From a virus (taxonomy: Duplodnaviria; Caudoviricetes), in the IMG/VR virus record IMGVR_UViG_2974731481_000001, positions 1 through 64,000 of that record: a stretch of 64,000 nucleotides of DNA. One strand, written 5' to 3'. Positions 3,523 through 64,000 of this stretch are shown in pieces (the stretch's first letter is position 1; the number at the start of each line of letters is the position of its first letter). The notes beneath the pieces are model-generated. The model had not been told where the DNA came from. It saw only the letters and a list, made by a program, of their open reading frames with translations, and did no database searches. The position numbers and the translations under genes are program-made.

Positions 3523-3560
3523 TTCTACGGGGGAGTTAGAATAAACTAGTTCCCTCGTAG
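3523..3560 (+). other. Intergenic hairpin containing the TACGGGGGAG element
   Basis: CTACGGGGGAG...TTCCCTCGTAG imperfect inverted repeat; no clear U-tract. Confidence 0.55.
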
Positions 3561-6995: not shown

Positions 6996-7302
6996 TTATC
7001 ACATTTCTTTTACGGGGGAGGTAGTTCAAGAAGATTCTGTTCTTATTTCATATAATGATTTAAAGGCTGTTAATGGTAAACTTATTGAATTAAAATATGA
7101 GAAAGAAACTAATAATATTCTTAGAACAATTATTCGGAATGATAGTCTTATTATTGATACTCTTACTATTGACAATCTTAGATTAACTTCTGAAGTTAAA
7201 ACATTAAATAAGTCAAATAAGAAATATAAGAAACAACGTAATACTGGATTTGGTATTGGAATAGTTAGTATTATTACTACAATTCTTATGTTAATAAAAT
7301 AA
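6919..7302 (+). CDS. Putative spanin-like protein (lipobox-like N-terminus, C-terminal TM)
   Basis: MRKLLKSKVLIMIALLSC, coiled coil, C-terminal GFGIGIVSIITTILMLIK. Confidence 0.5.
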   Translation: MRKLLKSKVLIMIALLSCSINLYANDYHISFTGEVVQEDSVLISYNDLKAVNGKLIELKYEKETNNILRTIIRNDSLIIDTLTIDNLRLTSEVKTLNKSNKKYKKQRNTGFGIGIVSIITTILMLIK

Positions 7303-14681: not shown

Positions 14682-16004
14682 ATGGCTGTAGCTGATATTG
14701 ATTTCGAAGGTACTAGTGGAAACGGAACTGGTTCTGGCACTGGTAATGGTAACGAAGGTAATGGCGGTCAAGGTAATGGCGGTCAGGAAGATGTTACTAA
14801 TCTCAATGGTGGTAGCAATGCTGATATTACAGGTCAAGATGGTAATCATGGCGGTGATGGAGGTAATGGTGACCAAGGAGGTAATCAAGGTAGTGAAGGT
14901 AATAACGGAGGAGAGAACGATGGTAGCTCTTCTACGGGGGAGCTTTCAGAAGGTGATACTATTGAATTCGATGGTACTACTTACACTGTAGATGCTTCTG
15001 GTAATCTTGTTGATGATAAAGGTAATGTCTTTAAAGAAGCTAAAGATGTAGCTGATTGGTTGAAGTCTGTTGAAGTTGAGGGTAACGGAGAAGGTTCTGA
15101 TACAATCTCTCTTGCTTCAATTCAAGAAGCTCTCGGTATTATCGTTACAGATGCTGAAGGAAAAAATATAGAATTTACTGATGATGCAGCAGGAGTCAAG
15201 GCTTATGTTGATGCTGTTATTGATTTAAAGTCTAAAGACCTTCAGCAAGCAGCAGTTAATAAACTGTATGCTGATAATCCTCTTCTTAAACAGTTTACTG
15301 ATTATGTTCAGTTGACCGGTACTGCTAAAGGTTTTGGTGAAATTCCTGATCGTAGTGGTATTCAACTTGATAAAGAGAATGAGGATCAACTTAAAGCAGT
15401 TATTCGTATGGCTGCAAAAGAGTTTGGTAATAAGAGTCTTAATGAAAATTATATTAAATATCTTAAGGATAGTGGTGGTCTTTATGATGAGGCTAAAGTT
15501 CAACTTCAGGCACTTGTTGAAAAAGATGTTGCTGTTCGTAGGGATATTGAGGCTCGTGCTCAAGCTCAACGTGATACAGAAGCAAAAGCTGTAAGTGATT
15601 ATTGGAATAAAGTTAACAATGTTATCAATAGTAGAATTATTGCTGGATACAAACTTCCTGAAAGTTTTACTAAGGAAGTAAATGGACAAAAGGTGATTAT
15701 AACACCTAATGATTTCTATAATTATCTCTCTAAAGCAACAGAAACTGATACTGATGGTAATAAAGTTACAGGTTATCAAAGGGATTTAAATAAACTTACT
15801 GATGACGAATATCTCAATCGTGAATTACTTGATGCTTGGTTAATGTTTACTGGTGGAACTTATAAAGATTTGATTGCTATGGCTGTAAATGAAGATAAAG
15901 TTCGTCAACTTCGTGTTAAATCTAAAGAACAACGTTCTACAAAAACAGTAAAGGTTATTAAGAAGCAAGGTGGTAAAGTAGATATGAACGATATTGTTCT
16001 TTAA
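14682..16004 (+). CDS. Conserved gene upstream of MCP (putative scaffolding/assembly protein)
   Basis: 440 aa with acidic Gly/Asn-rich disordered N-terminus; lies between portal and MCP. Confidence 0.7.
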   Translation: MAVADIDFEGTSGNGTGSGTGNGNEGNGGQGNGGQEDVTNLNGGSNADITGQDGNHGGDGGNGDQGGNQGSEGNNGGENDGSSSTGELSEGDTIEFDGTTYTVDASGNLVDDKGNVFKEAKDVADWLKSVEVEGNGEGSDTISLASIQEALGIIVTDAEGKNIEFTDDAAGVKAYVDAVIDLKSKDLQQAAVNKLYADNPLLKQFTDYVQLTGTAKGFGEIPDRSGIQLDKENEDQLKAVIRMAAKEFGNKSLNENYIKYLKDSGGLYDEAKVQLQALVEKDVAVRRDIEARAQAQRDTEAKAVSDYWNKVNNVINSRIIAGYKLPESFTKEVNGQKVIITPNDFYNYLSKATETDTDGNKVTGYQRDLNKLTDDEYLNRELLDAWLMFTGGTYKDLIAMAVNEDKVRQLRVKSKEQRSTKTVKVIKKQGGKVDMNDIVL

Positions 16005-50000: not shown

Positions 50001-52262
50001 GCTAGTGATAATGTTTCAGACCAACCTATGAACGGTTTTGCTAATCGTATTAATTGTAAGTTTGAAATAAACATTGGTGATAAGTCTTGGAACTATGATT
50101 CATTTAATGAGTTTATTCTTAATAATAATCTTGTTAAACTGAATACTAAACCAGCATCTGATGGTCGTAGTAATTATGAACGTAGAGGTCAAAGAAGTCA
50201 AGCTGCTAATCAAGTATTTGAAATAAAGATTACTAAAGCAACTACCACCCCCGTAGAAAATAATGCACAACAGCAAGTTTCTTCTGCTCCTGCTACACAA
50301 AGCACACCTACTCTTAGTATTTCAGATAAAGCAATGAATATACTTAATGGTACTACTTCTACTACTAACAAAGGTGTTGCTCTCGTAGAACTGTTTTTTG
50401 ACAAAAATAAGTTAAACTTGTTAGAAAGTTTGGATATATTACCAAAAAGTATTACTTTTGACCCTGAATATAATAATAAACCTGGTAATGAAAATTACAA
50501 TGCAGAAGTTAATCCTCGTACTGGTGAAGTAACTATTGGTCAAAAATGGGTTAATATATTCAATAATCCTATTACTAGACCACAAGCTATTCGTAAACTT
50601 ATACATGAACAACTACATTATAAACTTCATAATAAGCGTGGTTATGTTCGTAGTGCTAAAGAAATATATAACGAATTTAAAGCAGCACTTGATGCTGAAG
50701 GTGTTCCAGCAGATGGACACATGCGAGCTTATTTGTTTGAACATCTTCCTGAAGATGAAGCTCTTGAAGAGTTTTTAGTTGAAACTTTAACTAGTCAAGA
50801 ACTTGCTAATAAACTTAATAGCATTGATGCTCAAGGTTATGATAAGAAAAGTTCTAGAAATCTTTTACAGAAAGTATTAGAACTTATGAGTAAAGTTTTT
50901 GGTTGGGGAGTTCGTAAAGGTAGTCTTTATGAAAAAGAACTTTATACTCTTCGTCAAAACTTTAATGAAAATTCTAATAAAAAAGATTATACTATAACTG
51001 GTGATGCTGAATATTCTGTTACAAAAAAAGATAATATAAAAATTTTCACAATTAAAGGTTATCCTACAAATAAAATTAGTAAAACTAGTGATAAAATTAA
51101 ATATGCATCTTATACTTTACAGTCTGATTTAATAATTAACGAAAATTATGAATATTTTAATGAAATAGATACATTTGTAGTTAAAACTATAAGAGAAAAT
51201 GAATCTAATGGTATAGTAGTAGCTGATGGTATTATAATGTTAAAAGATGGCACTAAATTTGAAGTTACTGTTAAATTAAAAAATAATCCTTTAACTAATA
51301 ATACACAAGATATTCTTGATGGTAAAGTCACAGTTGATACATATAAGAATCAAAATGGAACAAATACTACCACACAAGCACCAGTTGCTACTCCTACTGT
51401 AGTTCCTCCTATAACTTCTAGTAAACCTAGTCAGTTTGGAACTAAAAATAGTAGTAGACTTCGTGGTAAATTTAAAAGTAGTGTTACTGAAATTAGTAAT
51501 AATGATTCAACTTATTCTAATGAAATGCAAACTATAAAAGAACAAGCTATTGCTAATGGAACTTTTATGAAAGCTCCTAATGGTAAACCTACTAATCTTA
51601 CTGAAAGACAGTGGCTGCAAGTTAGAACTAAGAATTTTATTAATTGGTTTGGTGATTGGATTAACGATTCTGCTAATGCTTCAAAAGTAGTAGATGAAAA
51701 TGGTGAACCTTTAGTCGTTTATCATGGTACTACTACTCCAGATATTACTAAATTTGATTTAGCTAAAACACAAAGTGGTGAAGCATTTTGGTTTGCTAAT
51801 ATGGAAGCACAAAAAGGAGTATTCTATTCAAATCAAGATGATGAAAATCTGATAATGATGCCTTTATTTGTAAATATGAAAACACCACTATTAAATGATG
51901 CTGATTCTATGGAATCTTATGCCACAGATGAAACTCATGATGGAGGTCTGGTATTAGGAAAAATAGGTGATTTAAAAAATAGTTTTTCAGAAGAAGAATA
52001 TCAGGAATTATTAAACAAAGGTTTAAATGATGATAGTTATTTAGCTGCTGGAAATGTTGCAAATCCAAATCAATTAAAATCAGCTACTGATAATATAGGT
52101 GCTTTTTCTACTATTAATGATAATATTCGTCATAGTTCTATAACAGAACATACTGCTAAAGTAGCTTCTATTTCTACCTTTACAGACAGATTGCCAGTAT
52201 CACAACAAGCCAAATTTGCCACTATGGTAGGTCAAGGTAACATTAAAATATCTTGTATGTAG
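44013..52262 (+). CDS. Giant polyvalent virion protein with zincin and ART-PolyVal-like domains
   Basis: 2749 aa; HEQLH (50604-50618) with EEFLVE; C-terminal KAPNGKPTNL...NWFGDW...SKVVDENGEPLVVYHGT...NQLKSATDN. Confidence 0.8.
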   Translation: MDVLNFINNGGQKTIPNPNYNPKSKKNIQPPTITVADLDPERNSAVDMAVYDFNRQYSIGAKEADVYRKAGLNWNPWENLDKQIVEQQGALSKFGNALAQTVVSEVGLGTLIGITDLFDMIGQAVGLSDPNYQNAASKYLTEKQEEFKEATKIWVDPDKNIANGGLTDAGWWASNIPSIASSLTLLIPSTGVTKGLSWAGKASKLSRFTRNAVRALSGAERRLKYARELRAAGATAEEIQAASKLTKMQRFLNSSSTISAINLFLENGTTAALSRAMENYQEARQTYNDMYANASETFKNMSDEEYAKVVERSQDIITANGVDSNDRDAVAKAIAKESADKTFQIDWLNVGWDVLQMYGLRNAWKGLKNAPDNPVAVRRANLDAAKYFGKSADEIAKLKAQRTFSEKFGEKLSDFMYSSKLTIGAKLSEGAEEALNYVAQQEGMSFGKVLLGQEQKSNFDTRLAKYIQSPEMYDAAFWGVIGGVVFQGLGSQFRRLSNKLTENKRANNESKQSLPWYQLDELPEIKRRKAEIEARGIDFETYASHLKKIEEDNIDIYHPNTDGTERKFETESEKQAAKEKLKNEYITKMTLRAMNSGNLDMFKEFMANDDVRKGMVARGIFGTASETKSEQDIENESKTYIENALRQINQVEEQYDEEIAALDSAATSINSGKLNDEDGLNDRKKRLKASTFDTIPVEYLQIMAVENVKARTEIVNLRTEEAATEQRIAELLNTPGVQENLDENVDYRNSLKLAVITRELGQLRAERTSLMQDESKNLSNTLAIENIDKNISALEDQLNDVELVYATGIALQFVSDGNGKYHQEATAESVAYQDAMITRSVGKELGEVLNIPGLEYLSERSRTTLGDEKIAQEKIADQNVQSAISTLRNVSPELSSAYQEIAAIQTRLDFANNDIVRTVDQVKHQAAILNNTMNEARKTAIIGANKILLDMYRKYGNKVLDAIYDKYHIKGSDTQFDRTTANMTNEEKQNLSDAIDVLDLTNDSNKALFDVILERFAMEDAIRASRKEETNNEESQSSVIIEDTISDTENAKADNSSSYTTKAVSGQGNEQISGVGTPINPQEIENRTPTYYTKFYGDKKGNFTSGRHANTDEDNSSIAVYDNEDGTFTLDVRGNKQNLNDTRFFSNADEVDLTRLFEVKSKPIAVRNKKGKFVISEPGRLVNTDTAEYQQRQEEKAQQEQVQQEGSQEVQNEETSGTQAAPATTESAPATETPATTPSEEGLTSVTQPTTSSTGEQKQNSNTNIFDSVGTTSEMNPKKLKDNNSIGKTNQIIAANWDAYKEEYDEYKRTGNKSKMSSTRNVKPEDTIKFFEDYYAHQQKLVDAKPVTTEKTKSFEEVVNQAPDWDTINNDALSKFIPAAKANHDIDLEAMANKLISEYVAKGADRTIAELGVTKAKEIIQRQLARLKANNKEITMRSSIDEVLIAQSTITEVISDTEAVKAYKEAVKQMIAQYAKEVGLEELDGKLYINLEDLLRYTNTSTNDRTTSAALFESMKQWLSSFEAKEKYIVTDEAETNKENFIENTQKSAEERYLERLADTSVQRVDIQTYVHNLTDPNDVNTFYDALDALQPGMGLATKVVGSIIHVLDGQNRVVGTMPIPRVNVTTGAYEMYNDGWKTDVDVRNGSTVSALKDLFTQWLTSKDANAKQLNSIIFQLAYTNPNIETKNKLYSQLENNPLWQAAKSRRFMADNATTKELANGLVKLWKFAKPSSNASTTVQNIQIKRSINAWFDKLKHSYDAVSALANGGGLNVSVATISDGELVRAGETKAEAEANALPVDKAIAGGVNPTIHKIAVSDSIIDGQLNVAGAPNLKFPGVGKGNTFVILPNRSGRPGYAHAYPAEVTADYIGQDAKDILKAVHNEITKVINDYNNDKTADNYNKLKTFFKQLLYNKDGNRSLFDGVVYSETSNGFSIGIPGTNMYVKFHETGRYGGPAIYAFVGEDNKNIPYDKPRLHQAINNIINNMKFKLSYAYIASDNVSDQPMNGFANRINCKFEINIGDKSWNYDSFNEFILNNNLVKLNTKPASDGRSNYERRGQRSQAANQVFEIKITKATTTPVENNAQQQVSSAPATQSTPTLSISDKAMNILNGTTSTTNKGVALVELFFDKNKLNLLESLDILPKSITFDPEYNNKPGNENYNAEVNPRTGEVTIGQKWVNIFNNPITRPQAIRKLIHEQLHYKLHNKRGYVRSAKEIYNEFKAALDAEGVPADGHMRAYLFEHLPEDEALEEFLVETLTSQELANKLNSIDAQGYDKKSSRNLLQKVLELMSKVFGWGVRKGSLYEKELYTLRQNFNENSNKKDYTITGDAEYSVTKKDNIKIFTIKGYPTNKISKTSDKIKYASYTLQSDLIINENYEYFNEIDTFVVKTIRENESNGIVVADGIIMLKDGTKFEVTVKLKNNPLTNNTQDILDGKVTVDTYKNQNGTNTTTQAPVATPTVVPPITSSKPSQFGTKNSSRLRGKFKSSVTEISNNDSTYSNEMQTIKEQAIANGTFMKAPNGKPTNLTERQWLQVRTKNFINWFGDWINDSANASKVVDENGEPLVVYHGTTTPDITKFDLAKTQSGEAFWFANMEAQKGVFYSNQDDENLIMMPLFVNMKTPLLNDADSMESYATDETHDGGLVLGKIGDLKNSFSEEEYQELLNKGLNDDSYLAAGNVANPNQLKSATDNIGAFSTINDNIRHSSITEHTAKVASISTFTDRLPVSQQAKFATMVGQGNIKISCM

Positions 52263-55300: not shown

Positions 55301-58300
55301 TACCTATGGTCAACCTATATTTAGAGAAGGATTTGATAATAGTAAAGCTACTACAAGAAAATTGTATGCTGGCTATCATGTTGGTAAAGGAAAGAATATT
55401 CTTTCTATTGATGACAATGGTAAAGCTCATTTAACAGGTGCTGTATTTACTAGTGATAGATTTAAGATTACTAAAACTAATAAAGATGGTTCTGTTACTG
55501 AACGAAACTATGGTCAAGAAATATTGGATGAAGCTGTGGATTTCCTTTACGGGGGAGCTAATGGAAAGTATGTCCAAACTACTCGTAGTGATAATGGTGT
55601 TAGTGTAGTACTTAACGATGAACAAGAAGCTGCTATTGAACAAAAGCTTACTGAGTTTATTAATGATTATGTAGCAGATACTCAAGATAGAATGGAACAA
55701 TATGAAGATTTTATTCCTTCTTATCTTATGAGTGACAATAATGTTGCTGAATTTGCTCTTAATCATCATCTTATGTATATCAACTTCAATGACTTATTTG
55801 AGGGTGATACTAAGTTTTATAAAGATACACAAACATTCCTTAAGCGTGCTAAAGAAGCACAAGGTTCAGGTGTTCCTTATGGTATTGTAGATTATAATAT
55901 GGATTTATCTGCACCTAGAACTACTATTCCTAGTCATTTGAATACAAAAACTTTTGAACGTACTCTTGCTGATGGTAGTAAAGCAGTTTTAAATCAAAAA
56001 GCTTATGATGATGCTATAGCACAAGGAATGTCAGAAAAAGAGGCTAAACGAGTAGCAAATATGATTACTCAAACTAATAAGTTTAGAGGAGTAACTATTA
56101 AAAATACTATTCGTACAAGCCAAGAAGTAGCAGTTAAAGGTGAAAATGGTGCTAAACAAGATGGTGCTGTCACTAAGAAACTTATTGAAGCTCTTCGTGC
56201 TTCAGGTATGACAGTAAAAGATGCTACAGATAAAGCTCGTCAAATGATATTGGGCTATCATGGTACTACTGTAAATGATGCTCAATCTTACATTACATTT
56301 GAAGAGTGGGTTCGTCGTGTATCTGCCCGTGGTCAACTTGAAAAGTATATGCCTTTAATTGAGGCTATTCTTGATGAAAGTAAACCATTAGATGCTAAAA
56401 CTATAGGTGAATTTGTTCAAGTACAAAAGAATTTCTATTATGATCAACATTATAATGCTGAATTAGGAGTTATTGCTCCTCGTCAGATTAAGAATGCTGA
56501 ATTTGTTCTTGTTCCTCGTCTTATTGAAGGTACTCAACTTGAACAAGTTTATAATCTCATGCGAGATAATGGTATTGACCAATTGAATACTGAAGAAACT
56601 TCTAAAGCAGGTAAAGCTAATGTATTAACTCTTTGGGATAACGATGGTAATCTTACTCAAGAAAACATTGATGACTTTAATGCTAATGCAGCTCAAGCGA
56701 CTGAATTGTATAATTATAATTATCTGTATACTCAACAAGAAACTCCTCAGCATCTTGATGCAGAGAATAAAGCTGGTATTCAAATTATGAAGAAGATTCT
56801 TGATAATATTGATTCTACTAGTCCTCTTTGGGAAACTAAACAACATTTCTTCCGTCTTTATTCTGAAAACATCAAAGACAGTTTTGCTGAATTAATGGAT
56901 GAATTCCAACTTGAAACTGATGAAAACGGTAATCTTAAACTTGATAAAGATGGAAATATTCAAGGTTTAGATTATCAATTATTTTTTACTAGATTGCAAG
57001 AAGAAGTTGCTCGACTAGGACTTGATAGTAATATGTTAGATTATGTTACACTTGATGATACTCAAGTAAGTGATAAATCTAATAATAGTCCTCTTACTGG
57101 AGCTATTACTAAAATGCCTACTTATATGAGTAATGTTTCAACAAAACTTGAAAGTATTGCTCAAAGTTTGTTTAATAGTAGAATTACTCGTCAGAAACTT
57201 CCTGGTTTCCATGCTGCTCAGATTACTAATGTAGGATGGCACGCTATGAGTGATACTGTTCAAAAGAGAACTTATAGTAAAGACCTTAAGTACCATCCTG
57301 ATGGTAAACCTTATGTGGAAATAATGCTTCCTAAAAGTGCTTTTAATCTTAAATATGAAAAGTCTGATGGAACTTTAAAAACTGATGAAGAACTTCTTGA
57401 AGAAATTCAAAATGCAAAAATTGATGAAGTAATTGGTTATCGTATTCCTACTGAAGGTAAACAATCAGTATGTATAATGAAAGTTGTTGGTTTTACTGAT
57501 GACGCTCTCGGTTCTACTATTGTTGTACCTGATGACTGGGTTTCTCAAACAGGTTCTGATTTTGATATTGACTCTGTATATGGTATTAACTATTCTACTT
57601 ACATTGATGAAAATGGTGTAGTTCAAAAGAAAGAATATCATAAAGAAGCTACTAATACTGATTGGTTACGTTATCTTACAAAGAAGAAAAAAGATACTAT
57701 TTTTAATGCAGTCTTTAAATCTGTAATGAAAGAAGAAGCTGATGCTTATCATAATGTTACAGATAAAGTAAGACCTATAATTAAAGAAGTACAAGCTCCT
57801 TATGTAGAAGAACGTAAAGCAGAAGGTAGTAAAGTTAATGGTCGAGAAAGTTTTATTAATCAGATTAATGCTGTTATTAAACGTCTTAACCAAGAACTTG
57901 AAGATGCTTCTTATACTGAAGAAGAAAAAGCTAATATTCAAGAATTTATTGATAAATGTGATACTCTTGCTACAATTCTTGATATAGAAAAGAAAACTCT
58001 AAGTACTAAAAAAGAAGAACGAGTTAATACTTTTATTGATAAGTATAAAAAAGAATTTAATAAGGCTGCTAAAGATAATAATATCACAACATATGATAAT
58101 ATAAATAGTATTCCTTCAGAACAGCGTAATACCAGAGATGCTAGAAATAATGAAATTCTTGCATCTATGATTGAAATTCTTTCTCATCCTGCTGCTTTGG
58201 AAGAAAACTTATCTCGTTCTAACTTCGATGATATCATTGATGCTCGCGACCAAGCAATTGATAAAAATATCGCTAAACGTCGTAAAGCTCGTAGTCCTTA

Positions 58301-61300
58301 TAATTTCTTAGACCAAGCTGATTATCAAGAAGATGTAATGAGTGGTGCTAAACTTAAAGCATTTAGTGTTACTCGTGATACTTTCTGTTCTATTTGTAAT
58401 ACAGTTCGTCCTAGATTATTTGAAAGTCATCAAGTTAAGGTTGTATATAGAGTAGTAGATGGTTATACTCTTAAGAATCTTAAAAAGTCTTTTAAAAATG
58501 TAGAAGAAATACAAGATGGTGTATTTGTGGTTACTCATGATACTTTTGGTTGGAGTAAAAATAACAAAAATGCTGCTGGTAAAATTCTTACTGCATATTC
58601 ATCTCAGACTACTGCTCATATTCTTGATGCTGTAAAGGAAGGAGCTATTCCTAATGTTAATGATTTGACTTTCCAAGTATATAAATTATTTCCTGATTTA
58701 GGTAGTGATTATAATACTGGTGTATCATTCATTATGCAACCTGGTATTAGTCGAATTGTAGCAGCTTATAATAGTAGTAAATCTATTTATAGTAGAGGTA
58801 AAAAGAATCCTATTCATGCTGCTATAAAGAGTGTTGCTAAAGAGCTTCTTGCTATGGATGGTATTAAAGTTACTGATAGAATGAGTGTAGATACTGTAAT
58901 TAATATGTTACAGCGTTATAATTCTGAACTTTCTTCAATATTCGGTGCAGGTGGTCAAAAATATAAAATTAGTTTAGAAGATAAAGAGGTTGCTAAACTT
59001 CTTATTTCAGGTAGTAGACTTAAAGAACGTCTTAAAAGTGAAGGTGTATTTGAAGGAAGCTCCCCCGTAGAAGAGAAGAGAAAGTTGCTTTTTGACCTTG
59101 GTACTATACTTCAGTATAATAAACTTTCACATTTAGGAAATTCTATTTCTGCTTATGCTAGAGTTTGTAATCCTGATAAGTTTGGTGCTAAGCAAACTAT
59201 ATTCTCTACTAATAAAGTATTTAGAGATATTAAGGATATTATAGCAGATGAAAATCCTGCTATGTATATTCCTGGTGCTACTAAAAATGATAGTAATAAA
59301 CATTTCCTTGAAGCTATTTATCCTGGTATAAGAGGAAGTCTTGAAGAGTTTATTCAAAGTTCTGATATGAATTCTGCTTATCCTCCTCTTCATTATTTCT
59401 TAAAATACGCTACTGCTACTTCTATTAAAGTAAATAGAACTCTGTTTGAAACACAAGACCCACGTTTTGTTGAAGAAATAATGAAACTTACTAATTCATT
59501 TAGTGGTGCTTATGCTAGAATGGATGAGAAAACTTATAAAGATTTTCAGAATTATGTTCTTAATTATCTTTATGGTAATACTCAAGCAGTTTCTTCTGCT
59601 ATAACTTATGTACCTGGTCAAGGTTTTATGGTAGTAGCAGATAGTAATAAAGAAGATGAACGTCGTAGAATATTTGGTTATGGTAAAGACCCTGATTTAC
59701 GTGTTCAAGATGAAAACGGAGATTTGATAGAATTTAGAGTAAAAGATATTAATAATCCTACTCAAAAGGAAATTGATGCTTTTGCTACTCTCAGTCCTGC
59801 TCAAAAAATTACTTGGATTCAAGGTCATTTTAGAGAAAGCGGTGTATTTAAATATATTAAAACTACTCTCTTTAATGAACGTCAATATAGAGCAAACAAA
59901 GCAGGTTCTCAAACTATAGAATTTGTTGAAGGAAATGCTAATATTGAAACTGTTTATAACGAATTTGAAAAGTGTTTCTTTAATGATAATCCTTTAGTTG
60001 CATTAGCAGCTCTTGATATAGTCAAATATGCTTTTGCTGTTGAAGGTTTTAAAATAAAAAGAAATGGTGTTAGTAAAGTTATTAAAAATTCAACATTATA
60101 TGAAGATCCTAAATTAGGAGGTACTGGTATTGTAACTGAATTAAATCATGCTATTGGTACTATAGCTGACGGTTCTATTGATATGTATATGCTTCGTGAC
60201 AGATTTGTTAGAAGTCATTCTACAATGTATCAAATAGAAACACATCGTGTTGAAAAGAATGATAAAAAGCAATATGAGTTATATCGTATGGACCATGGTA
60301 TAATTCATATTGAAATGCAATATGCTGATTCTACTGCACAAGAACTTGCTGAAAAGTATGGAATGATATATAAAGTAGGTGAGAAAAATAACTATGGTGT
60401 AAATAGATATGTAAAACTTCGTTTTGGTAAAGATACAGTTTTATATAAAATTAAAGAATACTATGGTGAAATAATTGCTTATCCTCTTAATACTCTTGAA
60501 GAAAATGAAACTGATGATTGGTCTGTAAATGTTCAAAACAATAAATATCCTGATAGTTCTTATTATGAGGAAATAATTGATGAATGGTATCATCCTGCTG
60601 AAGGAAGTACAACTACTTCTTTAAAGCAAATTATTGAATCTAAAAAAGACAGTCTTGCTAATCATAGATTTGTTAATAAAAATAGAACTACAATGTCTAC
60701 TTATGCTACAACATTTGATATAAATACTAAGAAAACAGTTGACACTGGTGGTTTTGAAGATGTAATAGATAAAGTTAATTCTTATTTTGCTCAGAATCCT
60801 AAAGGTAGACTTTATCTTAGAAGTGGAGCTTTAGCTAAGTATATAACTCACACTGGTCCTATTAATGGTAGTATTCAAACTATTAATGGTAAGGAATATC
60901 AAATTGTTAAAATGGACTTCAAGCGTTATAACGATATGTATATCGGAGAACGTAATAAAGACCGTGAAATTAAACGTGTTGATCCTCAAGTAAAAGAAAT
61001 AATCGAAAGAGCTAGAGATGGAGGTTATAGAGTAAGTGATGCTTTCTATATAGAACCTTATAAAGCTCCAGCTCCTAAAGATGAAACTCAAGAGGAAGAA
61101 GTTGAAGTAGTAAGACATTCTAGCGTTACTGAACTTGGAACTAATTCTATGAATGCAATGTATCGTAGACAAGTTTCAGAAGGTGACATCGAAGCTGGTA
61201 AAGCACTTAGTAGATTATATGAAAAAGATATTAAAGCTAAGGACGCGTCTGTTAAATTAAATCTTGGAGAAGTTATTAGTACTTCTGCAGAATATGTTAC

Positions 61301-64000
61301 TGTTACAACAAATAAAATTCTTAATGACCTTAAGTATTTTATTCAAGATGAAACTGGTGTATATCATTCAGTTAACGATCCTGAAACTATAAATCTGATT
61401 CGTAATAATCCTGATGAAAGAGCTCGTTTCCTTAAAACTCTTCTTGATGCAAGAGCCTTTGTACGAAACTATCGTATGATTAATGACCTTGATATTGATT
61501 CAGAAGATGAAGCACTTAGACGAGATTTGAACAAAATTAAAGATGCTATTAATTCTCTTCGTAATGCTAATATTATAAATTATGCAGAAGAAAGATTTGC
61601 AAATGAATATCTTGCTAAACTTAGTGATAATCCTTTAGTACAACAAGATATTCTTAGTTTGCTTGATGGTTATCATAGTGCTGGTGCTTTTGATGCTTGG
61701 GTTAATGACCTTCAAGAAACATCTAGTCCTCTTCTTCAGATTATAACTAAAGAAGTAATGGGTGATATTAGAGCAAAGGAAATGCAAGCTACTAAACGTG
61801 TTCGTGAGTTTAAAACTAAACTTAATGAACTTAAAAAAGCAGCTAAAGACGCTGGTGTTACTATTGACTGGAAGAACATTATAGATGAAAATGGTAAGTT
61901 TGTTCAAAAATATAATCAAGCATTTACTGAAAAACTTGAAGAACTTCGTAATGCTGTTTATACTGCAAAAGCTGAACATGGAGAAGGTAGTATTGAGCAT
62001 CTAAAAGCTAAGTTTGAGTATGATAAGTGGAAACTTAATCATGTCAATCAACAACTTAAAGATGATTATTATCAGCGTAAACTTGAGTTAGAAGAAAAAA
62101 TGCTTGGTGATGGCACTGCAGATAATTATGGATTCCCTGCTATATATGAAGCTTATAATAAACTTGCTACTAGACGTAGAGAAATTCTAAGCCATATAGT
62201 AAATGGTACTCTTGAAGAACGTTATCAAGAAGAACTTAAAAAGGTTAAACAAGATATTGATAATCTTACTACACCTTATTTCTATGACGCTGCTACAGAT
62301 ACATTTATTGAAAAGTATAGTGTTGACGATCCAGAGAATCCTTTTACGGGGGAGCAAAAGCTAGTCTATAGCATAGATGCAGCTACTGCTCTTAAAGCTC
62401 ATCTTGCTTCAATGAAAGAACTTAGAGATGAATATTATACTCATGATGCTAAGTTTGGCTTTGATGAAGAGCTTGAAAAGAATCTTGATACTATTAGTAA
62501 CTATGAGATGCGTGATACTAATGGACGTATTACTACTCCTATAGTAGAACTTATGAAACATGACGATTATGTTAAAGCTAAAGAATGGGTTGAACATAAT
62601 GCTCGTTATGTTATGTCTCCTGAAACTCAAAAGTTTATCAATGATGCGTTTAAAGTTCTTCGTGAAGGAAAAGATGGTCGTGAAACTTTAGGTCTTCTTG
62701 CAAAACATAAGGATGCTTACGATACACATGGTGTTATTAACGCTATGTTGTTCGATGATGATGAAATTGCTAAAATCAAAGAAGAACAATTAGATAATTA
62801 TAATATTCGTGAAGGTCAGCCTTATGCAGATAGAAGTTTGATTAGCAATGCTCCAACAGATAGTACTCAATTTAAGGCTGCGTTCTATGCTAATATGAAA
62901 TCTAATGGTATTCCTAATCAAGAGTATATTAAATTAGTAAATGAAATTAATTCTATTCTTGCTCCATATTACGAAACAGCAACTAGAACTTTACATACTT
63001 CTGAAATAACTGAAGAAGATCTAGAAAAACTTGCTGAATTATATGATACTATAGAAAAAACAAAGAAAACCATAGATTCTACTAATGGTCGAACTGTTAG
63101 ACGTTATATAAAAGATAATGTTGACTTTGTTGTTGATATGGAAAAATATGAAGAGCAAAAAGAATATGCAAAACAAAAAGGTCCTCGTTATTTAAGACTT
63201 TGGCAAGATGTTAATGAACGTATCGAAGAAGATGATTCTGGCAATTTGATTTTTGTACCTAATCGTAGAATATTTGGTTATGCTGTACCTAAAGGTTATA
63301 AAGCTGATGGCACTGGTGATAATTCTATGGTTGCCAAAAATAAAACTGATGCTCTTGATATTGTTCATAACTATTGTAAAACAGTAAAGACTGAATACTA
63401 TTATAAGAAATATAGAGAAATGAAAGCTAAAACAGAAGCAGAATTTAATGCTTGGTATAAGGCTAATCACATTTATAATCCTTATAATCATACTTATGAA
63501 CCAATTCAATGTTGGACTCGTATGGAAATTGAACCTATGAGCGATGACGGTGAACATGAAGCAGCTGGTATGTGGGTTCCTGCATTTAATCAACTTGAAA
63601 CAAGACCTAAAGACGGAAAAGACAAACATGGTAATCCTGATGGTAGTCCTGATATGACTAATCATAATTATCGTCATGGTATGAGTACTGCTGCTAATTA
63701 TAAGTCTGAAGGTGCTAAATTTGATGATACATTAACTCCTGCAACTCATAAGAATTATGCTGACGGAATAAATTATGATAATAATGCTGTCATGAATCCT
63801 TATGAACAACAAGTTAGTGAGTTTATGCAAGAAACTTTACAACAACTTGCACATACTACTTCTGCAAAACGTTATTTTGATAGAGGTTATATGCCTAGTC
63901 GTGCTAAACGACCTGAACGTGATGCTAAGTTCTATGCAAAAGAAGTTGTTAAGATGCTTGGTTGGATTGAAGGTGCTAGCGGACGTGAAGCTTGGTATGA
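52341..64000 (+). CDS. Virion-packaged RNA polymerase (phi14:2 gp66-like), >3880 aa, runs off the window end
   Basis: ATG at 52341; in-frame GYRIPTEGKQS and QTGSDFDIDS (DFDID at 57558-57572); the same frame reads sensibly at every point spot-checked up to 64000; absent from the ORF track, consistent with no stop being reached. Confidence 0.92.
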   Translation, partial: MSCKIQVNHSSITEQLRNEVGTNEVLFQSYFSEVISEDEFTSEFNDWCNTRLGKTFDVNNSDTAAEAVEAIKRYYNENHPDINYSSRIQNDATNVGHFGYNSIASREFAKRVAANFMLDFYHQLAHDFHEKIEGSKKAYFADAVTGRMEEIIAERLSAITNMSEDDIYEIIDEGNISKLEELFGDNTSIQNKNLLAVYKEMIANREGFFTEVFRDSRLGDLRFESDDDMSETGTYESTDEQQEGDDNTPTNEDENKSQTDDKNNSIKELNEKLGDYNNFMTHVDMSVRSYLNSLKKLNSEIGFDGHYDFDLNNDLGLPDTMNADECCAVLYSYGDFTNLKSMIVSIREIAKNIPGFTAFHQMADYLEENGDFAYEIYRTFGKTVISKLETVMDGDKGKSRTSNRSADKLTSLRFEYLNSAKATSILLDDISSKNIYNELYQDIQSFKSLYEDSKTMSTEEAMDIADLMAINDELDKQKKDLVAKISSQLRRYYPTIEDTAIANYISNAHDEDVVGNLLNLAQRLKETIDASYLTQQQYNSRKAELGRAWAFNKKLAQDKAEGLRMSEEPKDMTDLYAVDYVDPATQAAAFNLANELVKYTMVKTELNSRNVHGNQSSDVINNSMITNVINTLKSQTALENFGKYKGQSRQYDFSNIMIEHWNYKKDENGNILKDKDGNPIKDGKQPINYGLFTQNPETKELTPTPYAQRLIRTRLFSGASDIITSSNVLYSEMSKGDYVATSFLNFFNVEESTEPVSDKISIKFANYFMRIPSDAPKNFIMTAPKYSVGESRVGANDGLFRIENKVEADKKIYQQINGIATVGEEYAALEGNAVKRSLNQLIHNVTSRNINNIVLQNKKAIFEENPKVGDKVNVTFDYTSKDGVSTQYVLEGTLANENGRLVLQAPEFKGFVGDTKSSDVNTSLFNHFQKKLIKSGDIKRSINTNHPIYQQFRQVFVQELNDAATALDRFFVTKNGMVKLDDNIDSPTYGQPIFREGFDNSKATTRKLYAGYHVGKGKNILSIDDNGKAHLTGAVFTSDRFKITKTNKDGSVTERNYGQEILDEAVDFLYGGANGKYVQTTRSDNGVSVVLNDEQEAAIEQKLTEFINDYVADTQDRMEQYEDFIPSYLMSDNNVAEFALNHHLMYINFNDLFEGDTKFYKDTQTFLKRAKEAQGSGVPYGIVDYNMDLSAPRTTIPSHLNTKTFERTLADGSKAVLNQKAYDDAIAQGMSEKEAKRVANMITQTNKFRGVTIKNTIRTSQEVAVKGENGAKQDGAVTKKLIEALRASGMTVKDATDKARQMILGYHGTTVNDAQSYITFEEWVRRVSARGQLEKYMPLIEAILDESKPLDAKTIGEFVQVQKNFYYDQHYNAELGVIAPRQIKNAEFVLVPRLIEGTQLEQVYNLMRDNGIDQLNTEETSKAGKANVLTLWDNDGNLTQENIDDFNANAAQATELYNYNYLYTQQETPQHLDAENKAGIQIMKKILDNIDSTSPLWETKQHFFRLYSENIKDSFAELMDEFQLETDENGNLKLDKDGNIQGLDYQLFFTRLQEEVARLGLDSNMLDYVTLDDTQVSDKSNNSPLTGAITKMPTYMSNVSTKLESIAQSLFNSRITRQKLPGFHAAQITNVGWHAMSDTVQKRTYSKDLKYHPDGKPYVEIMLPKSAFNLKYEKSDGTLKTDEELLEEIQNAKIDEVIGYRIPTEGKQSVCIMKVVGFTDDALGSTIVVPDDWVSQTGSDFDIDSVYGINYSTYIDENGVVQKKEYHKEATNTDWLRYLTKKKKDTIFNAVFKSVMKEEADAYHNVTDKVRPIIKEVQAPYVEERKAEGSKVNGRESFINQINAVIKRLNQELEDASYTEEEKANIQEFIDKCDTLATILDIEKKTLSTKKEERVNTFIDKYKKEFNKAAKDNNITTYDNINSIPSEQRNTRDARNNEILASMIEILSHPAALEENLSRSNFDDIIDARDQAIDKNIAKRRKARSPYNFLDQADYQEDVMSGAKLKAFSVTRDTFCSICNTVRPRLFESHQVKVVYRVVDGYTLKNLKKSFKNVEEIQDGVFVVTHDTFGWSKNNKNAAGKILTAYSSQTTAHILDAVKEGAIPNVNDLTFQVYKLFPDLGSDYNTGVSFIMQPGISRIVAAYNSSKSIYSRGKKNPIHAAIKSVAKELLAMDGIKVTDRMSVDTVINMLQRYNSELSSIFGAGGQKYKISLEDKEVAKLLISGSRLKERLKSEGVFEGSSPVEEKRKLLFDLGTILQYNKLSHLGNSISAYARVCNPDKFGAKQTIFSTNKVFRDIKDIIADENPAMYIPGATKNDSNKHFLEAIYPGIRGSLEEFIQSSDMNSAYPPLHYFLKYATATSIKVNRTLFETQDPRFVEEIMKLTNSFSGAYARMDEKTYKDFQNYVLNYLYGNTQAVSSAITYVPGQGFMVVADSNKEDERRRIFGYGKDPDLRVQDENGDLIEFRVKDINNPTQKEIDAFATLSPAQKITWIQGHFRESGVFKYIKTTLFNERQYRANKAGSQTIEFVEGNANIETVYNEFEKCFFNDNPLVALAALDIVKYAFAVEGFKIKRNGVSKVIKNSTLYEDPKLGGTGIVTELNHAIGTIADGSIDMYMLRDRFVRSHSTMYQIETHRVEKNDKKQYELYRMDHGIIHIEMQYADSTAQELAEKYGMIYKVGEKNNYGVNRYVKLRFGKDTVLYKIKEYYGEIIAYPLNTLEENETDDWSVNVQNNKYPDSSYYEEIIDEWYHPAEGSTTTSLKQIIESKKDSLANHRFVNKNRTTMSTYATTFDINTKKTVDTGGFEDVIDKVNSYFAQNPKGRLYLRSGALAKYITHTGPINGSIQTINGKEYQIVKMDFKRYNDMYIGERNKDREIKRVDPQVKEIIERARDGGYRVSDAFYIEPYKAPAPKDETQEEEVEVVRHSSVTELGTNSMNAMYRRQVSEGDIEAGKALSRLYEKDIKAKDASVKLNLGEVISTSAEYVTVTTNKILNDLKYFIQDETGVYHSVNDPETINLIRNNPDERARFLKTLLDARAFVRNYRMINDLDIDSEDEALRRDLNKIKDAINSLRNANIINYAEERFANEYLAKLSDNPLVQQDILSLLDGYHSAGAFDAWVNDLQETSSPLLQIITKEVMGDIRAKEMQATKRVREFKTKLNELKKAAKDAGVTIDWKNIIDENGKFVQKYNQAFTEKLEELRNAVYTAKAEHGEGSIEHLKAKFEYDKWKLNHVNQQLKDDYYQRKLELEEKMLGDGTADNYGFPAIYEAYNKLATRRREILSHIVNGTLEERYQEELKKVKQDIDNLTTPYFYDAATDTFIEKYSVDDPENPFTGEQKLVYSIDAATALKAHLASMKELRDEYYTHDAKFGFDEELEKNLDTISNYEMRDTNGRITTPIVELMKHDDYVKAKEWVEHNARYVMSPETQKFINDAFKVLREGKDGRETLGLLAKHKDAYDTHGVINAMLFDDDEIAKIKEEQLDNYNIREGQPYADRSLISNAPTDSTQFKAAFYANMKSNGIPNQEYIKLVNEINSILAPYYETATRTLHTSEITEEDLEKLAELYDTIEKTKKTIDSTNGRTVRRYIKDNVDFVVDMEKYEEQKEYAKQKGPRYLRLWQDVNERIEEDDSGNLIFVPNRRIFGYAVPKGYKADGTGDNSMVAKNKTDALDIVHNYCKTVKTEYYYKKYREMKAKTEAEFNAWYKANHIYNPYNHTYEPIQCWTRMEIEPMSDDGEHEAAGMWVPAFNQLETRPKDGKDKHGNPDGSPDMTNHNYRHGMSTAANYKSEGAKFDDTLTPATHKNYADGINYDNNAVMNPYEQQVSEFMQETLQQLAHTTSAKRYFDRGYMPSRAKRPERDAKFYAKEVVKMLGWIEGASGREAWY

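What the first reader, a model, noticed from the sequence alone, without database searches (positions are those of the whole stretch)
3526..62354. Dispersed Y6-TACGGGGGAG element written into genes in all frames and on both strands
Seen: ten exact TACGGGGGAG copies (plus strand 3526, 7011, 14933, 31986, 39082, 47771, 55548, 62345; minus strand 31904, 59060), one TACGGGGGTG (minus, 50246) and a degenerate copy at 20447. They recur roughly every 2.5-11 kb and account for nearly every G5/C5 run I found. A rough estimate at about 30% GC gives about 0.01 chance copies of this 10-mer per window. Inside genes it reads FTGE/STGE, LRGS, YGG or SPVE/TPVE and forces rare codons (ACG, GGG, CGG), so selection acts on the nucleic acid. 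The 5' flank is almost always six pyrimidines, allowing a hairpin with a UACG (UNCG-type) loop; 14925-14944 reads AGCTCTTC-TACG-GGGGAGCT. Inference: an undescribed cis-acting system. Options are binding sites for a phage DNA-organising protein (two IHF-like genes are present), ssDNA hairpin signals for the virion RNAP or for ejection/packaging (N4 vRNAP uses hairpin promoters), or RNA processing/antitermination sites. The three antisense copies favour a DNA-level role.
Basis: partly seen in the sequence, partly recalled or inferred. Interest (0 to 1): 0.9.

Follow-up and report, generated by a model that had tools for sequence, protein, structure and literature searches.

The report
Strand-specific genome word in crAss phages
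A roughly 21-28-base DNA word is written about every 5 kb on each strand of this crAss-like phage and of its whole family (including the prototypical human-gut crAssphage), kept at the same spots even inside genes, which points to an undescribed signal read one DNA strand at a time.

Summary
TACGGGGGAG occurs 10 times in the window and 15 times in the 92.8-kb phage genome, against 0 in shuffles. The full element is about cACAT-YTCTTC-TACGGGGGAG-CTA.

A codon-preserving shuffle gives 0.02 exact copies in ORFs against 9 observed. The element sits at the same codon in orthologous genes of 9-12 of 12 relatives whose proteins are only 30-90% identical.

It is present in all 17 Intestiviridae genomes tested, in lineage-specific variants. 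These include Carjivirus communis and crAss002. It is rare in Bacteroidales genomes.

Same-strand copies avoid each other within about 5 kb, while opposite-strand copies sit at any distance: below 1 kb there are 82 inverted and 3 tandem pairs. Orientation ignores gene direction in intergenic DNA, 38 sense against 46 antisense.

The ssDNA hairpin is not stable and the RNA hairpin is only modest.

Best reading (confidence 0.4): a strand-specific start or entry signal, primer or nick, for phage replication or recombination. Nothing shows this directly. My literature searches found no description of the element.

The parts
3518..3538 (+). Element copy (core 3526-3535), intergenic, 10 nt after the stop of ORF 2966-3508 and 48 nt before the ATG at 3584.
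3547..3567 (-). Degenerate inverted partner (core TACGAGGGAA, 2 mismatches) of the 3526 copy.
7003..7023 (+). Element copy just after the stop of ORF 6684-6995 and about 290 nt upstream of the terminase gene. The same place is occupied in 11 of 12 genomes.
14925..14945 (+). Element copy inside ORF 14682-16004, sense, codon 83, reading SSTGEL. The same codon is occupied in 11 of 12 genomes.
20439..20459 (+). Degenerate copy (TACGGGCGTG), intergenic, 27 nt before the ATG at 20484.
31901..31921 (-). Element copy, intergenic; the minus member of a divergent pair upstream of the two IHF-like genes (32026-33690).
31978..31998 (+). Element copy, intergenic; the plus member of the divergent pair, 30 nt before the ATG at 32026.
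39074..39094 (+). Element copy inside ORF 38655-40844, sense, reading LLRGS. Codons 142/146 are occupied in 7 genomes.
47763..47783 (+). Element copy inside the 2749-aa ORF 44013-52262, sense. The position has turned over among lineages (codons 1213-1327), mostly keeping the sense orientation.
50243..50263 (-). One-mismatch copy (TACGGGGGTG) antisense in the 2749-aa ORF, codon 2077. The same codon is occupied in 10 genomes.
55540..55560 (+). Element copy, sense, in the virion-RNA-polymerase ORF 52341-66203, codon 1069. The same codon is occupied in 11 genomes.
59057..59077 (-). Element copy, antisense, in the virion-RNA-polymerase ORF, codon 2239. The same codon is occupied in 10 genomes.
62337..62357 (+). 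Element copy, sense, in the virion-RNA-polymerase ORF, codon 3334. Only one relative has a nearby sense copy, G008 at codon 3317; G005 (3855) and MH552500 (4319) carry sense copies much further on.

Best explanation
The element is an asymmetric DNA word of about 21-28 nt: a pyrimidine tract, then TAC(G/A), a G run, and a short lineage-specific 3' tail. It is shared by the whole family Intestiviridae and is read one strand at a time by a phage-encoded factor that co-evolves with it. Each copy serves several kb of its own strand. The most likely role is a start or entry point for the phage replication-recombination machinery: a site where a primer is laid down or a nick is made, giving a 3'-OH on that strand for the phage family-B polymerase. 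The candidate reader for the primer version is the phage's divergent DnaG-like primase, which works without any DnaB-type helicase encoded in these genomes. Shown: selection at the DNA level, family-wide positional conservation, strand-specific spacing, independence from transcription direction, and absence from host genomes.
For: (1) Strand logic. In 17 Intestiviridae genomes a relaxed pattern finds 408 sites against 3 in the reversed-sequence controls. 285 of 391 neighbouring pairs are on opposite strands. Below 1 kb there are 82 inverted pairs and 3 tandem pairs. The inverted fraction is 0.95-0.98 below 1 kb, 0.70-0.88 at 1-5 kb and 0.42-0.50 above 5 kb. Label shuffles within single genomes give p of 0.00001 or less to 0.055. 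Close inverted pairs are kept, so a copy on one strand does not replace a copy on the other.

(2) Even spacing. The per-strand coefficient of variation is 0.25-0.5 in most cases against about 0.9 for random placement. The mean spacing of site loci is 3.6-7.5 kb.

(3) Independence from genes. Of intergenic copies, 38 are sense to both neighbours, 46 are antisense to both, and 8 lie at junctions.

(4) Copies sit in intergenic DNA when it is available (94 of 278 against 25.4 expected) and are otherwise written into coding sequence at conserved codons.

(5) Lineage-specific variants, and two variants co-existing within one genome, argue for a phage-encoded reader.

(6) The word is not a host word. 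The 18-mer gives 10 stretches in 596 Gb of prokaryote genomes; 8 of the 10 lie on contigs of phage-genome size (79-97 kb) binned into MAGs, 7 of them on one 93.8-kb contig. TACGGGGG occurs 701 times against 1,744 for the reversed control in 31 Bacteroidales genomes.

(7) Replication module. A DnaB-type helicase (Pfam DnaB_C, E 1e-20) is found in 3 of 3 Suoliviridae genomes, which have no strong dispersed word. It is not found by tblastn in 17 of 17 Intestiviridae genomes, nor in the one Crevaviridae and the one Steigviridae genome, which carry dispersed words of their own.

(8) The phage primase model matches the DnaG RNA-polymerase domain best (Foldseek E 3e-5). It has no Pfam zinc-ribbon hit and only one invariant Cys in its first 145 residues.
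Against: There is no direct evidence of a primer, a nick or binding. The sequencing runs available were contigs only. Known DnaG-type primases read about three bases (recalled), so a 21-28-nt footprint would be unprecedented for a primase. It fits a promoter, a nickase or an initiator protein better. Nick-associated motifs in other phages lie on one strand only (passages of PMC11780129). Some strands have long empty stretches: the maximum same-strand gap is 38 kb in this genome and 37 kb in MH552500. That is awkward if both strands need regular starts. The link to the replication-module type rests on four or five lineages and is confounded by phylogeny. Fpv3 lacks both the DnaB hit and a clear word. 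crAss001 has a cr1_1-like primase (33% identity) and still carries a dispersed word. In-gene copies show a sense bias (117 against 67), which may reflect coding constraints or a link to transcription. The primase model has low confidence (mean pLDDT 58.5, TM 0.26-0.33).
Confidence: 0.4

Rival explanations
1. Transcription signal. The word could be a phage-specific promoter (for instance for the virion RNA polymerase, with RNA starting in the G run), a factor-dependent terminator, or an orientation-dependent roadblock like mycobacteriophage stoperators.
For: The length and asymmetry (21-28 nt) fit a phage-type promoter or a repressor site. 9 sense copies punctuate the 65-kb plus-strand gene block of this genome. 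Half of the sense intergenic copies lie 25-52 nt upstream of a start codon and 11-30 nt after a stop codon. In-gene copies are sense 117 times against 67 antisense. RNA-run contigs change depth near 31.7-32.0 kb, where the divergent pair lies; this is a weak, contig-only hint.
Against: Intergenic copies are antisense to both neighbours as often as sense (46 against 38). Antisense copies inside essential genes (SNF2 codon 169 in 12 of 12 genomes; virion-RNA-polymerase codon 2239 in 10) are conserved across the family. Sense copies inside giant essential ORFs would truncate their mRNAs if they were terminators. No T run follows the motif, and 0 of 11 terminator-like calls in 1-20,000 fall on a copy. 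For phi14:2, no common motif was found upstream of virion-polymerase transcripts, and middle promoters are host-like (passages of 10.1101/2020.03.07.982082).
Confidence: 0.17
2. Chi-like 'self' mark. The word could be recognised on one strand by a translocating helicase-nuclease, of the phage or the host, so that degradation is attenuated on phage DNA but not on host DNA.
For: The properties fit: strand-specific, orientation-dependent, kb reach, both strands, embedded in genes in any frame, and about one per 5 kb. The word is about 30 times denser in the phage than in Bacteroidales genomes. The phage encodes an SF1 helicase, a PD-(D/E)XK nuclease (by annotation of relatives), RecT and a Gam-like protein.
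Against: It is not the host's Chi. TACGGGGG is under-represented against its reversed control in 31 of 31 Bacteroidales genomes taken together (701 against 1,744). Known Chi words are 5-8 nt (recalled), whereas this footprint is 21-28 nt. Avoidance of same-strand neighbours is not expected for a protective mark, where more copies would be better. No phage-specific Chi is known to me (recalled).
Confidence: 0.12
3. Orientation-indifferent binding sites for a DNA-organising or packaging protein, for example the two IHF-like proteins at 32026-33690.
For: Site loci are evenly spaced (coefficient of variation 0.33-0.68 against 0.9-0.95 for random placement). Two IHF-like genes are present by synteny with crAssphage gp52/gp51, and a divergent pair of copies sits just upstream of them.
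Against: If orientation did not matter, close pairs would be redundant and half would be tandem. Observed: 82 inverted against 3 tandem below 1 kb. The spacing of pairs has no preferred distance: 33-976 nt. Pfam and NCBIfam give no hit for the IHF-like ORFs here, so their DNA-binding nature rests on others' annotation. Avoidance of deletion-prone direct repeats could explain part of the alternation, but not why close inverted pairs are kept.
Confidence: 0.08
4. A structured RNA element: a hairpin with a UACG loop acting in processing, stability or antitermination.
For: The pyrimidine tract can pair with the G run through G.U pairs. 10 of 10 window copies fold into that hairpin as RNA. Positions -5 and +8 partly covary: with A at +8, position -5 is T in 152 cases and C in 51; with G at +8 it is C in 22 and T in 21. 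In crAssphage, -6 A pairs with +9 T.
Against: Stability is modest: z-scores of -0.5 to -3.8, and 6 of 10 copies are matched by 24 or more of 200 shuffles. Variants with T at +8 are not compensated (0 of 33 have A at -5). The cr8_1 variant GGGGCGG puts a C-C mismatch in the stem. The loop varies (TACA, TATG, CACG). The analogous crAss001 word CTTCTGGAG cannot form a hairpin. Half of the intergenic copies are antisense. There is no Rfam match.
Confidence: 0.05

Closest known systems
Nick-associated motifs of phages T5, phiKMV and tf/Rembedalsseter (WACTRTGAC, TACTRTGMC; passages of PMC11780129 read)
   Same: A short asymmetric word dispersed through the genome, inside and outside genes, and conserved among relatives that share little nucleotide identity. 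The function is still unknown after decades.
   Different: Those words lie on one strand only, are not evenly spread, and are 9-20 nt long. Here both strands carry the word, same-strand copies keep about 5 kb apart, and the footprint is 21-28 nt. A physical nick has not been tested here.
Single-strand initiation (ssi) signals and the phage G4 complementary-strand origin, where DnaG primes without DnaB on SSB-coated DNA (recalled, no call)
   Same: A strand-specific signal read on single-stranded DNA by a DnaG-type primase acting without a replicative helicase. These phages encode a DnaG-like primase and two SSBs but no detectable DnaB-type helicase.
   Different: ssi signals are multi-hairpin elements of 100 nt or more, one or a few per replicon. 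Here the word is 21-28 nt with no stable DNA hairpin, and there are 15-39 copies per genome.
Chi sites (recalled)
   Same: Asymmetric, orientation-dependent, about one per 5 kb, tolerated in any reading frame, and taxon-specific.
   Different: Chi is 5-8 nt and over-represented in the cell's own genome. This word is long, specific to the phage and rare in Bacteroidales.
Stoperators of cluster A mycobacteriophages (recalled)
   Same: Dozens of asymmetric sites for one phage protein spread over the whole genome, mostly in short intergenic gaps.
   Different: Stoperator orientation follows the direction of transcription. Here intergenic copies are 38 sense against 46 antisense, and two thirds of the copies lie in genes.
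N4 virion-RNA-polymerase hairpin promoters
   Same: A phage with a giant virion RNA polymerase, and a possible hairpin in one strand.
   Different: N4 has three promoters at one genome end, in the sense orientation, with stable DNA hairpins. Here there are about 20 copies on both strands, and the DNA hairpin is predicted to be unstable.
REP/BIME elements (recalled)
   Same: Short dispersed repeats, often found as inverted pairs.
   Different: REPs are extragenic palindromes of bacterial chromosomes. This word is not palindromic, 184 of 278 copies lie in ORFs, and the copies are positionally orthologous instead of mobile.

Membership tests
UNCG-type RNA tetraloop hairpin | C-G closing pair around a UNCG loop, kept across homologues | tested here: not met
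   In the window, C(-1)/TACG/G holds in 7 of the 11 copies; 7011, 31904, 55548 and 62345 have T at -1. Across the family, loops are TACA (Rudgehvirus, G004), TATG (crAss002) and CACG (crAssphage), and position -1 is often T.
UNCG-type RNA tetraloop hairpin | Folding clearly better than shuffled sequence | tested here: inconclusive
   RNA minimum free energy is -2.9 to -11.3 kcal/mol. 4 of 10 copies are matched by 6 or fewer of 200 shuffles; the other 6 are matched by 24-54 of 200.
N4-type ssDNA hairpin promoter | Stable hairpin in single-stranded DNA | tested here: not met
   With DNA parameters, 9 of 10 copies fold at 0 to -0.5 kcal/mol, no better than shuffles. Only 14933 reaches -3.4 kcal/mol.
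Intrinsic (rho-independent) terminator | GC-rich hairpin followed by a T run | tested here: not met
   Positions +10 to +20 show no T run in 152 copies. 0 of 11 terminator-like calls in 1-20,000 coincide with the copies at 3526, 7011 or 14933.
Host Chi site | Over-representation in the host genome | tested here: not met
   TACGGGGG occurs 701 times against 1,744 for the reversed control in 31 Bacteroidales genomes, about 117 Mb. The true host species is unknown.
Phage nick-associated motif (T5, tf, phiKMV type) | Conserved dispersed asymmetric word among relatives with little nucleotide identity | tested here: met
   Relatives align over 14-64% of the genome at 68-74% identity, yet the word is kept at orthologous places.
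Phage nick-associated motif (T5, tf, phiKMV type) | All copies on one strand | tested here: not met
   Exact-core counts are 10 forward and 5 reverse in this genome, and 5/5 to 14/11 in eight of ten relatives; the other two have 3/4 and 0/1.
Phage nick-associated motif (T5, tf, phiKMV type) | A physical single-strand break at the word | not testable with these tools
   Only assembled contigs of public runs were available.
Stoperator-type repressor sites | Orientation tied to the direction of transcription | tested here: not met
   Intergenic copies: 38 sense to both neighbours, 46 antisense to both.
Host sigma-70-like promoter | -35/-10 hexamers at the sites, above chance | tested here: not met
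   120 promoter-like hits in 1-20,000 against 106 +/- 11 in shuffles. One weak hit (9 of 12) overlaps the 3526 copy. The Bacteroidetes-type promoter was not scanned.
REP/REPIN elements | Extragenic, palindromic, mobile copies | tested here: not met
   184 of 278 copies lie in ORFs. The word is asymmetric. Copies are positionally orthologous.
DnaG-family primase (candidate reader, ORF 77614-78843 of the genome) | TOPRIM / RNA-polymerase-domain fold | tested here: inconclusive
   The top Foldseek hits are DnaG RNA-polymerase domains (5w33 at E 3.1e-5; 3b39 at 8e-4), but TM is 0.26-0.33 on a model with mean pLDDT 58.5. tblastn to the cr1_1 primase gives 24% identity at E 1e-7. Pfam, NCBIfam and the PDB sequence and profile searches gave 0 hits.
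DnaG-family primase (candidate reader) | CHC2 zinc ribbon that reads the template | tested here: not met
   There is no Pfam zinc-ribbon hit, whereas the Suoliviridae cr1_1 primase has one. Only one invariant Cys (C39) and no invariant His lie in the first 112 residues of 9 aligned orthologues. The N-terminal 147 residues are modelled below pLDDT 50.

The most novel reading that the evidence does not exclude
Crassvirales genomes may be punctuated by family-specific 'strand words'. Intestiviridae carry the Y-tract-TAC-G-run word. Steigviridae crAss001 carries CTTCTGGAG 29 times. Crevaviridae cr127_1 carries a word of over 30 nt 10 times. Together these would form a previously unrecognised system in which a phage-encoded enzyme starts, or is licensed, on each DNA strand every few kb. 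That would amount to dispersed, helicase-independent initiation of DNA synthesis, or a viral self-mark for a strand-tracking nuclease, operating in the most abundant phages of the human gut.
Probability: 0.35. Interest if true: 0.9.

Novelty: new variant of a known kind. Interest (0 to 1): 0.8.

Why it matters
The element is among the most strongly conserved nucleotide features I found in these genomes, and the family includes the prototypical crAssphage and cultured phages (crAss002, Rudgehvirus jaberico). Very little is known about how these phages replicate, recombine or persist. The element has a fixed sequence, about 15-39 copies per genome on known strands, and a clear spacing rule. That makes it directly testable with native long-read sequencing, end mapping and binding assays. 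If it marks primer or nick sites, it would reveal an unusual replication strategy. If it is a self-mark, it would be a new kind of virus-host discrimination. In practice the word is also a compact, highly specific signature of Intestiviridae DNA: 10 stretches in 596 Gb of prokaryote genomes, 8 of them on contigs of phage-genome size (79-97 kb) mis-binned into MAGs.

Tried and rejected
Host Chi was rejected. TACGGGGG is under-represented in 31 Bacteroidales genomes. The crAss001 word CTTCTGGAG is not enriched in 13 genomes (271 against 244).

A recently mobile mini-element (REP/MITE-like) was rejected. Copies are orthologous codon for codon, with no insertion signature.

A composite dimeric site was rejected. 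Inverted pairs show no preferred spacing: 33-976 nt.

The ssDNA hairpin was rejected on predicted energies.

PHROGs gave 0 families for 10 ORFs next to the sites. Pfam, NCBIfam and PDB sequence searches did not recognise the primase, SNF2, polymerase, UDG, RecT or IHF-like ORFs. Their names therefore rest on the depositors' annotation of MH552500.1 and BK010471.1 and on synteny.

Reads: the look-up of sequencing runs returned only Logan contigs. Read laying on 28000-47999 showed no molecule ends and cannot show RNA or DNA ends; uncovered stretches there mean nothing.

A maximal-order Markov k-mer statistic failed to recover even the positive controls, so I replaced it with a dinucleotide expectation. 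Suoliviridae show only moderately enriched words, for example TTACTTTGG 19 times, which I did not follow up.

Literature: eight searches found no description of the word. I read passages only of 10.1101/2020.03.07.982082, PMC10983915 and PMC11780129. Supplementary file 1 of the phi14:2 preprint lists motif hits in 14 crAss-like genomes and could mention related sites. Papers outside the held library were not searched.

Limits of my counts: ORFs are ATG-started, at least 70 aa, and greedily chosen. The relaxed pattern misses variants; for example it catches 15 of the 31 crAssphage copies. The genomes are related, so pooled p-values overstate independence. Rows dropped before counts: sites whose core only partly overlaps an ORF, and intergenic sites lacking a flanking ORF on one side.
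Full report
**What is in the window**

The core TACGGGGGAG occurs 10 times (8 on +, 2 on -), against 0.00 expected in 100 dinucleotide-preserving shuffles. One further copy has a single mismatch, at 50246(-). Degenerate copies lie at 20447(+) and 3550(-). 11 of the 12 G5/C5 runs in the window belong to these copies.

The window is bases 1-64000 of a 92,815-bp virus record. That record holds 15 exact copies, 10 forward and 5 reverse, with 0 for the reversed-pattern control. It also holds degenerate copies at 68797(-), 82808(+) and 90838(+).

Aligning 152 exact copies from 11 related genomes shows that the conserved stretch runs from about -8 to +12. It reads (A/C)-W-Y-T-C-T-T-C-TACGGGGGAG-C-T-A, and the six 5' positions are almost purely C or T. 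Intergenic copies add CACAT further upstream. The full footprint is therefore about 21-28 nt.

**Selection acts on the DNA**

Within ORFs the word is read as STGE/FTGE, LRGS or YGG when sense, and as SPVE/TPVE when antisense. It uses codons that are otherwise very rare in this genome: GGG 0.75, CGG 0.32 and CCC 0.28 per thousand. Shuffling synonymous codons within each ORF 300 times gives means of 0.023 exact and 0.25 relaxed copies. The observed numbers are 9 and 11.

**Relatives and positional conservation**

The 16-mer TCTTCTACGGGGGAGC gives 99 stretches in IMG/VR. The 80 listed lie on 42 contigs, many of about 90 kb. Ten such records carry 1-25 exact cores each, eight of them 10-25, with reversed controls of 0.

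These genomes, plus MH552500.1 (Wotdevirus murinus; Intestiviridae, Obtuvirinae), align to this genome over only 14-64% of its length at 68-74% identity. Their proteins are 21-92% identical to those of this genome.

Even so, the word sits at the same codon and in the same orientation in the following places:

| Gene and codon | Orientation | Genomes with the word (of 12) |
|---|---|---|
| SNF2 ATPase, codon 169 | antisense | 12 |
| Primase, codon 277 | sense | 11 |
| 440-aa ORF, codon 83 | sense | 11 |
| Site upstream of terminase | sense | 11 |
| Virion RNA polymerase, codon 1069 | sense | 11 |
| Virion RNA polymerase, codon 2239 | antisense | 10 |
| 2749-aa ORF, codon 2077 | antisense | 10 |
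| UDG, codon 61 | sense | 9 |

At these eight places the majority-base fraction is 0.86-0.94 within the word and 0.57-0.73 in the flanks. Where a site has moved, for example codons 1213-1327 of the 2749-aa ORF, the orientation is mostly kept. Gene names come from the depositors' annotation of MH552500.1 and BK010471.1, not from my own family searches.

**Family-wide distribution**

The pattern YYYYYTACRGGGG gives the following counts, with controls of 0 in every case:

| Genome | Copies |
|---|---|
| cr8_1 | 12 |
| cr3_1 | 25 |
| Carjivirus communis (the prototypical crAssphage) | 10 |
| crAss002 | 15 |
| Rudgehvirus jaberico | 26 |

Each lineage has its own version:

- crAssphage: CCATCCTC-(T/C)ACGGGG(G/A)GT, 31 copies.
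- crAss002: CTCCTT-TA(C/T)GGGGGAA, 32 copies.
- Rudgehvirus: TCCTY-TACAGGGG.
- cr8_1: two co-existing forms, GGGGCGG and GGGGGGG.
- G007: GGGGGGG.

The word is absent from one Crevaviridae and four Suoliviridae genomes (0 of 5). It is also essentially absent from crAss001, three more Suoliviridae-type records and Flavobacterium phage Fpv3, with 1 chance-level match in 5 genomes.

It is not a host word. The 18-mer gives 10 stretches in the 596-Gb genome collection; 8 of the 10 lie on contigs of 79-97 kb, 7 of them on one 93.8-kb contig binned into a MAG. TACGGGGG occurs 701 times in 31 Bacteroidales genomes, against 1,744 for its reversed control.

**The spacing rule, which is the most informative result**

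A relaxed pattern finds 408 sites in 17 Intestiviridae genomes and 3 in their reversed sequences.

- Neighbouring sites are on opposite strands in 285 of 391 cases.
- Below 1 kb, 82 pairs are inverted and 3 are tandem.
- The inverted fraction falls with distance: 0.98 and 0.95 below 1 kb, 0.70-0.88 between 1 and 5 kb, and 0.42-0.50 beyond 5 kb.
- Within single genomes, shuffling the strand labels gives p from 0.00001 or less (crAss002: 2 same-strand pairs below 4 kb against 12.7 expected) up to 0.055.
- On a single strand the sites are spaced far more evenly than random, with a coefficient of variation of 0.25-0.5 against about 0.9 in most cases.
- Inverted pairs show no preferred distance: 33-976 nt.

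So same-strand copies are redundant within about 5 kb, while a copy on one strand does not substitute for one on the other. That is the signature of a signal that acts on one strand and has a reach of several kb. An orientation-blind binding site would not keep 82 close inverted pairs.

**Relation to genes**

Sites are 3.7-fold enriched in intergenic DNA: 94 of 278 against 25.4 expected. Their orientation there is unrelated to the flanking genes. 38 are sense to both neighbours, 46 are antisense to both, and 8 lie at convergent or divergent junctions. Inside ORFs, 117 are sense and 67 antisense. That bias may come from coding compatibility. Promoters or terminators serving the genes are therefore unlikely. 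There is no T run after the word, and no terminator-like call falls on a copy.

**Structure**

As RNA, the pyrimidine tract pairs with the G run through G.U pairs around a TACG loop. The energies are -2.9 to -11.3 kcal/mol, and only 4 of 10 copies clearly beat shuffles. As DNA, 9 of 10 copies are essentially unfolded.

Covariation is mixed. A at +8 goes with T at -5 (152 against 51 C). G at +8 goes with C or T equally (22 and 21). T at +8 is never compensated (0 of 33 have A at -5). crAssphage shows A(-6) paired with T(+9), while the cr8_1 variant introduces a C-C mismatch.

The crAss001 analogue cannot form a hairpin at all. I conclude that the sequence itself is read, and that the hairpin is incidental or at most secondary.

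**Other families**

- crAss001 (Steigviridae) carries CTTCTGGAG 29 times, against 2 in the reversed control. 4 copies are intergenic, 12 sense and 13 antisense.
- cr127_1 (Crevaviridae) carries a word of over 30 nt around CCCTTGTGGCC 10 times, on both strands.
- Three Suoliviridae genomes show nothing comparable.

A DnaB-type helicase (Pfam DnaB_C) is found in 3 of 3 Suoliviridae genomes. It is not found by tblastn in the 17 Intestiviridae genomes, cr127_1, crAss001 or Fpv3. This fits a replication role, but it rests on few independent lineages.

The Intestiviridae primase is very divergent. Pfam, NCBIfam and PDB sequence searches give no hits. A low-confidence model (pLDDT 58.5) matches DnaG RNA-polymerase domains best, at E 3e-5 and TM 0.26-0.33. 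Its N-terminal 145 residues have a single invariant Cys, so a canonical zinc ribbon is not evident.

**Interpretation**

What is shown:

- a DNA-level, family-wide, positionally conserved, strand-specific word;
- even per-strand spacing;
- no tie to the direction of transcription;
- no counterpart in the host.

What I infer:

- The word is read by a phage-encoded, co-evolving protein.
- It serves a process that runs along one strand for kilobases.

My lead reading (0.4) is a start or entry point for DNA synthesis or recombination, either a primer or a nick. The rivals are:

- a transcription signal (0.17);
- a Chi-like self-mark (0.12);
- orientation-blind architectural sites (0.08);
- an RNA hairpin (0.05).

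The main weaknesses are the lack of any direct molecular evidence, the length of the footprint for a primase, the one-strand rule of known nick motifs (passages of PMC11780129), and same-strand gaps of up to 38 kb in this genome.

**Novelty**

Eight full-text searches found no description of the word. I read passages of the phi14:2 polymerase preprint and of the crAssphage phage-plasmid preprint; neither mentions it. Supplements were closed, and papers outside the held library were not searched. The closest known kinds are phage nick motifs, ssi signals, Chi and stoperators, and the element fails at least one defining feature of each. I rate it a new variant of a known kind (dispersed genomic punctuation words), with a real chance that it is something categorically new.

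Noticed in passing
L230-L235 (MH675552.1, Bacteroides phage crAss001), whole record: The 9-mer CTTCTGGAG occurs 29 times (2 in the reversed control) on both strands, with a mean spacing of about 3.5 kb. 4 copies are intergenic, 12 sense and 13 antisense. It shares CTTCT...GGAG with the Intestiviridae word and is not enriched in 13 Bacteroidales genomes (271 against 244).
   Followed up: partly
L203-L207 (MT774393.1, cr127_1, Crevaviridae), sites at 1769, 11364, 11912, 19699, 28698, 28879, 42040, 42240, 59333, 82350: A different, longer dispersed word (about TTCGGAACACCTCTCG-CCCTTGTGGCC-ATTA) occurs 10 times on both strands, including three close inverted pairs.
   Followed up: partly
L187:3336-4385 and L187:4777-6033 (genome 83336-84385 and 84777-86033, minus strand): Two adjacent ORFs (349 and 418 aa) with a gap of about 390 nt occupy the place of the single 771-aa family-B DNA polymerase gene of MH552500.1. 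This could be an intron, another insert, or a split gene.
   Followed up: no
L187:7151-8323 and L187:6828-7193 (genome 87151-88323 and 86828-87193, minus strand): The SF1 helicase is read as a 390-aa AAA_30/PIF1-like ORF plus an overlapping 121-aa ORF carrying the UvrD_C_2 domain. This could be a frameshift or a genuinely split helicase.
   Followed up: no
window 9595-11855 and 22116-26841: These blocks of ORFs (218, 276 and 232 aa; 468, 797 and 302 aa) have few or no homologues in the 11 relatives and contain no copy of the word. The longest word-free stretch of the window (20447-31904) spans the second block.
   Followed up: no
L186:2946-3017 (+), L187:9121-9194 (-), L187:9352-9436 (-): Three tRNA genes: Gln(ttg) just downstream of the virion-RNA-polymerase gene, and Lys(ttt) and Leu(taa) in the minus-strand block. 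The window itself has none.
   Followed up: no
window 27825-28112 (+): A small ORF with an HTH_17 (excisionase-type) helix-turn-helix domain (E 2e-6), annotated as 'excisionase' in MH552500.1. It is a possible sequence-specific DNA binder in a phage with no integrase noted.
   Followed up: no
L218-L222 (cr8_1) and L165-L169 (crAssphage): Two sub-variants of the word co-exist in one genome. In cr8_1 they are TACGGGGCGG and TACGGGGGGG. In crAssphage they are TACGGGGGGT-type and CACGGGGAGT-type. Whether they mark two classes of site is unknown.
   Followed up: no
window about 31700-32000: In two bovine-gut RNA-library runs the contig depth falls from about 50 (28238-31737) to about 4-7 (from 32025 on) across the intergenic region that holds the divergent pair. 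This is contig data only, so it is a weak hint of a transcription-unit boundary.
   Followed up: no
L188, L190-L192, L194, L195 (JAFRAK010000011.1, 93,767-bp contig of a 'Bacilli bacterium' MAG): A crAss-sized contig carrying many copies of the word is binned into a bacterial MAG. It is probably a mis-binned Intestiviridae genome.
   Followed up: no
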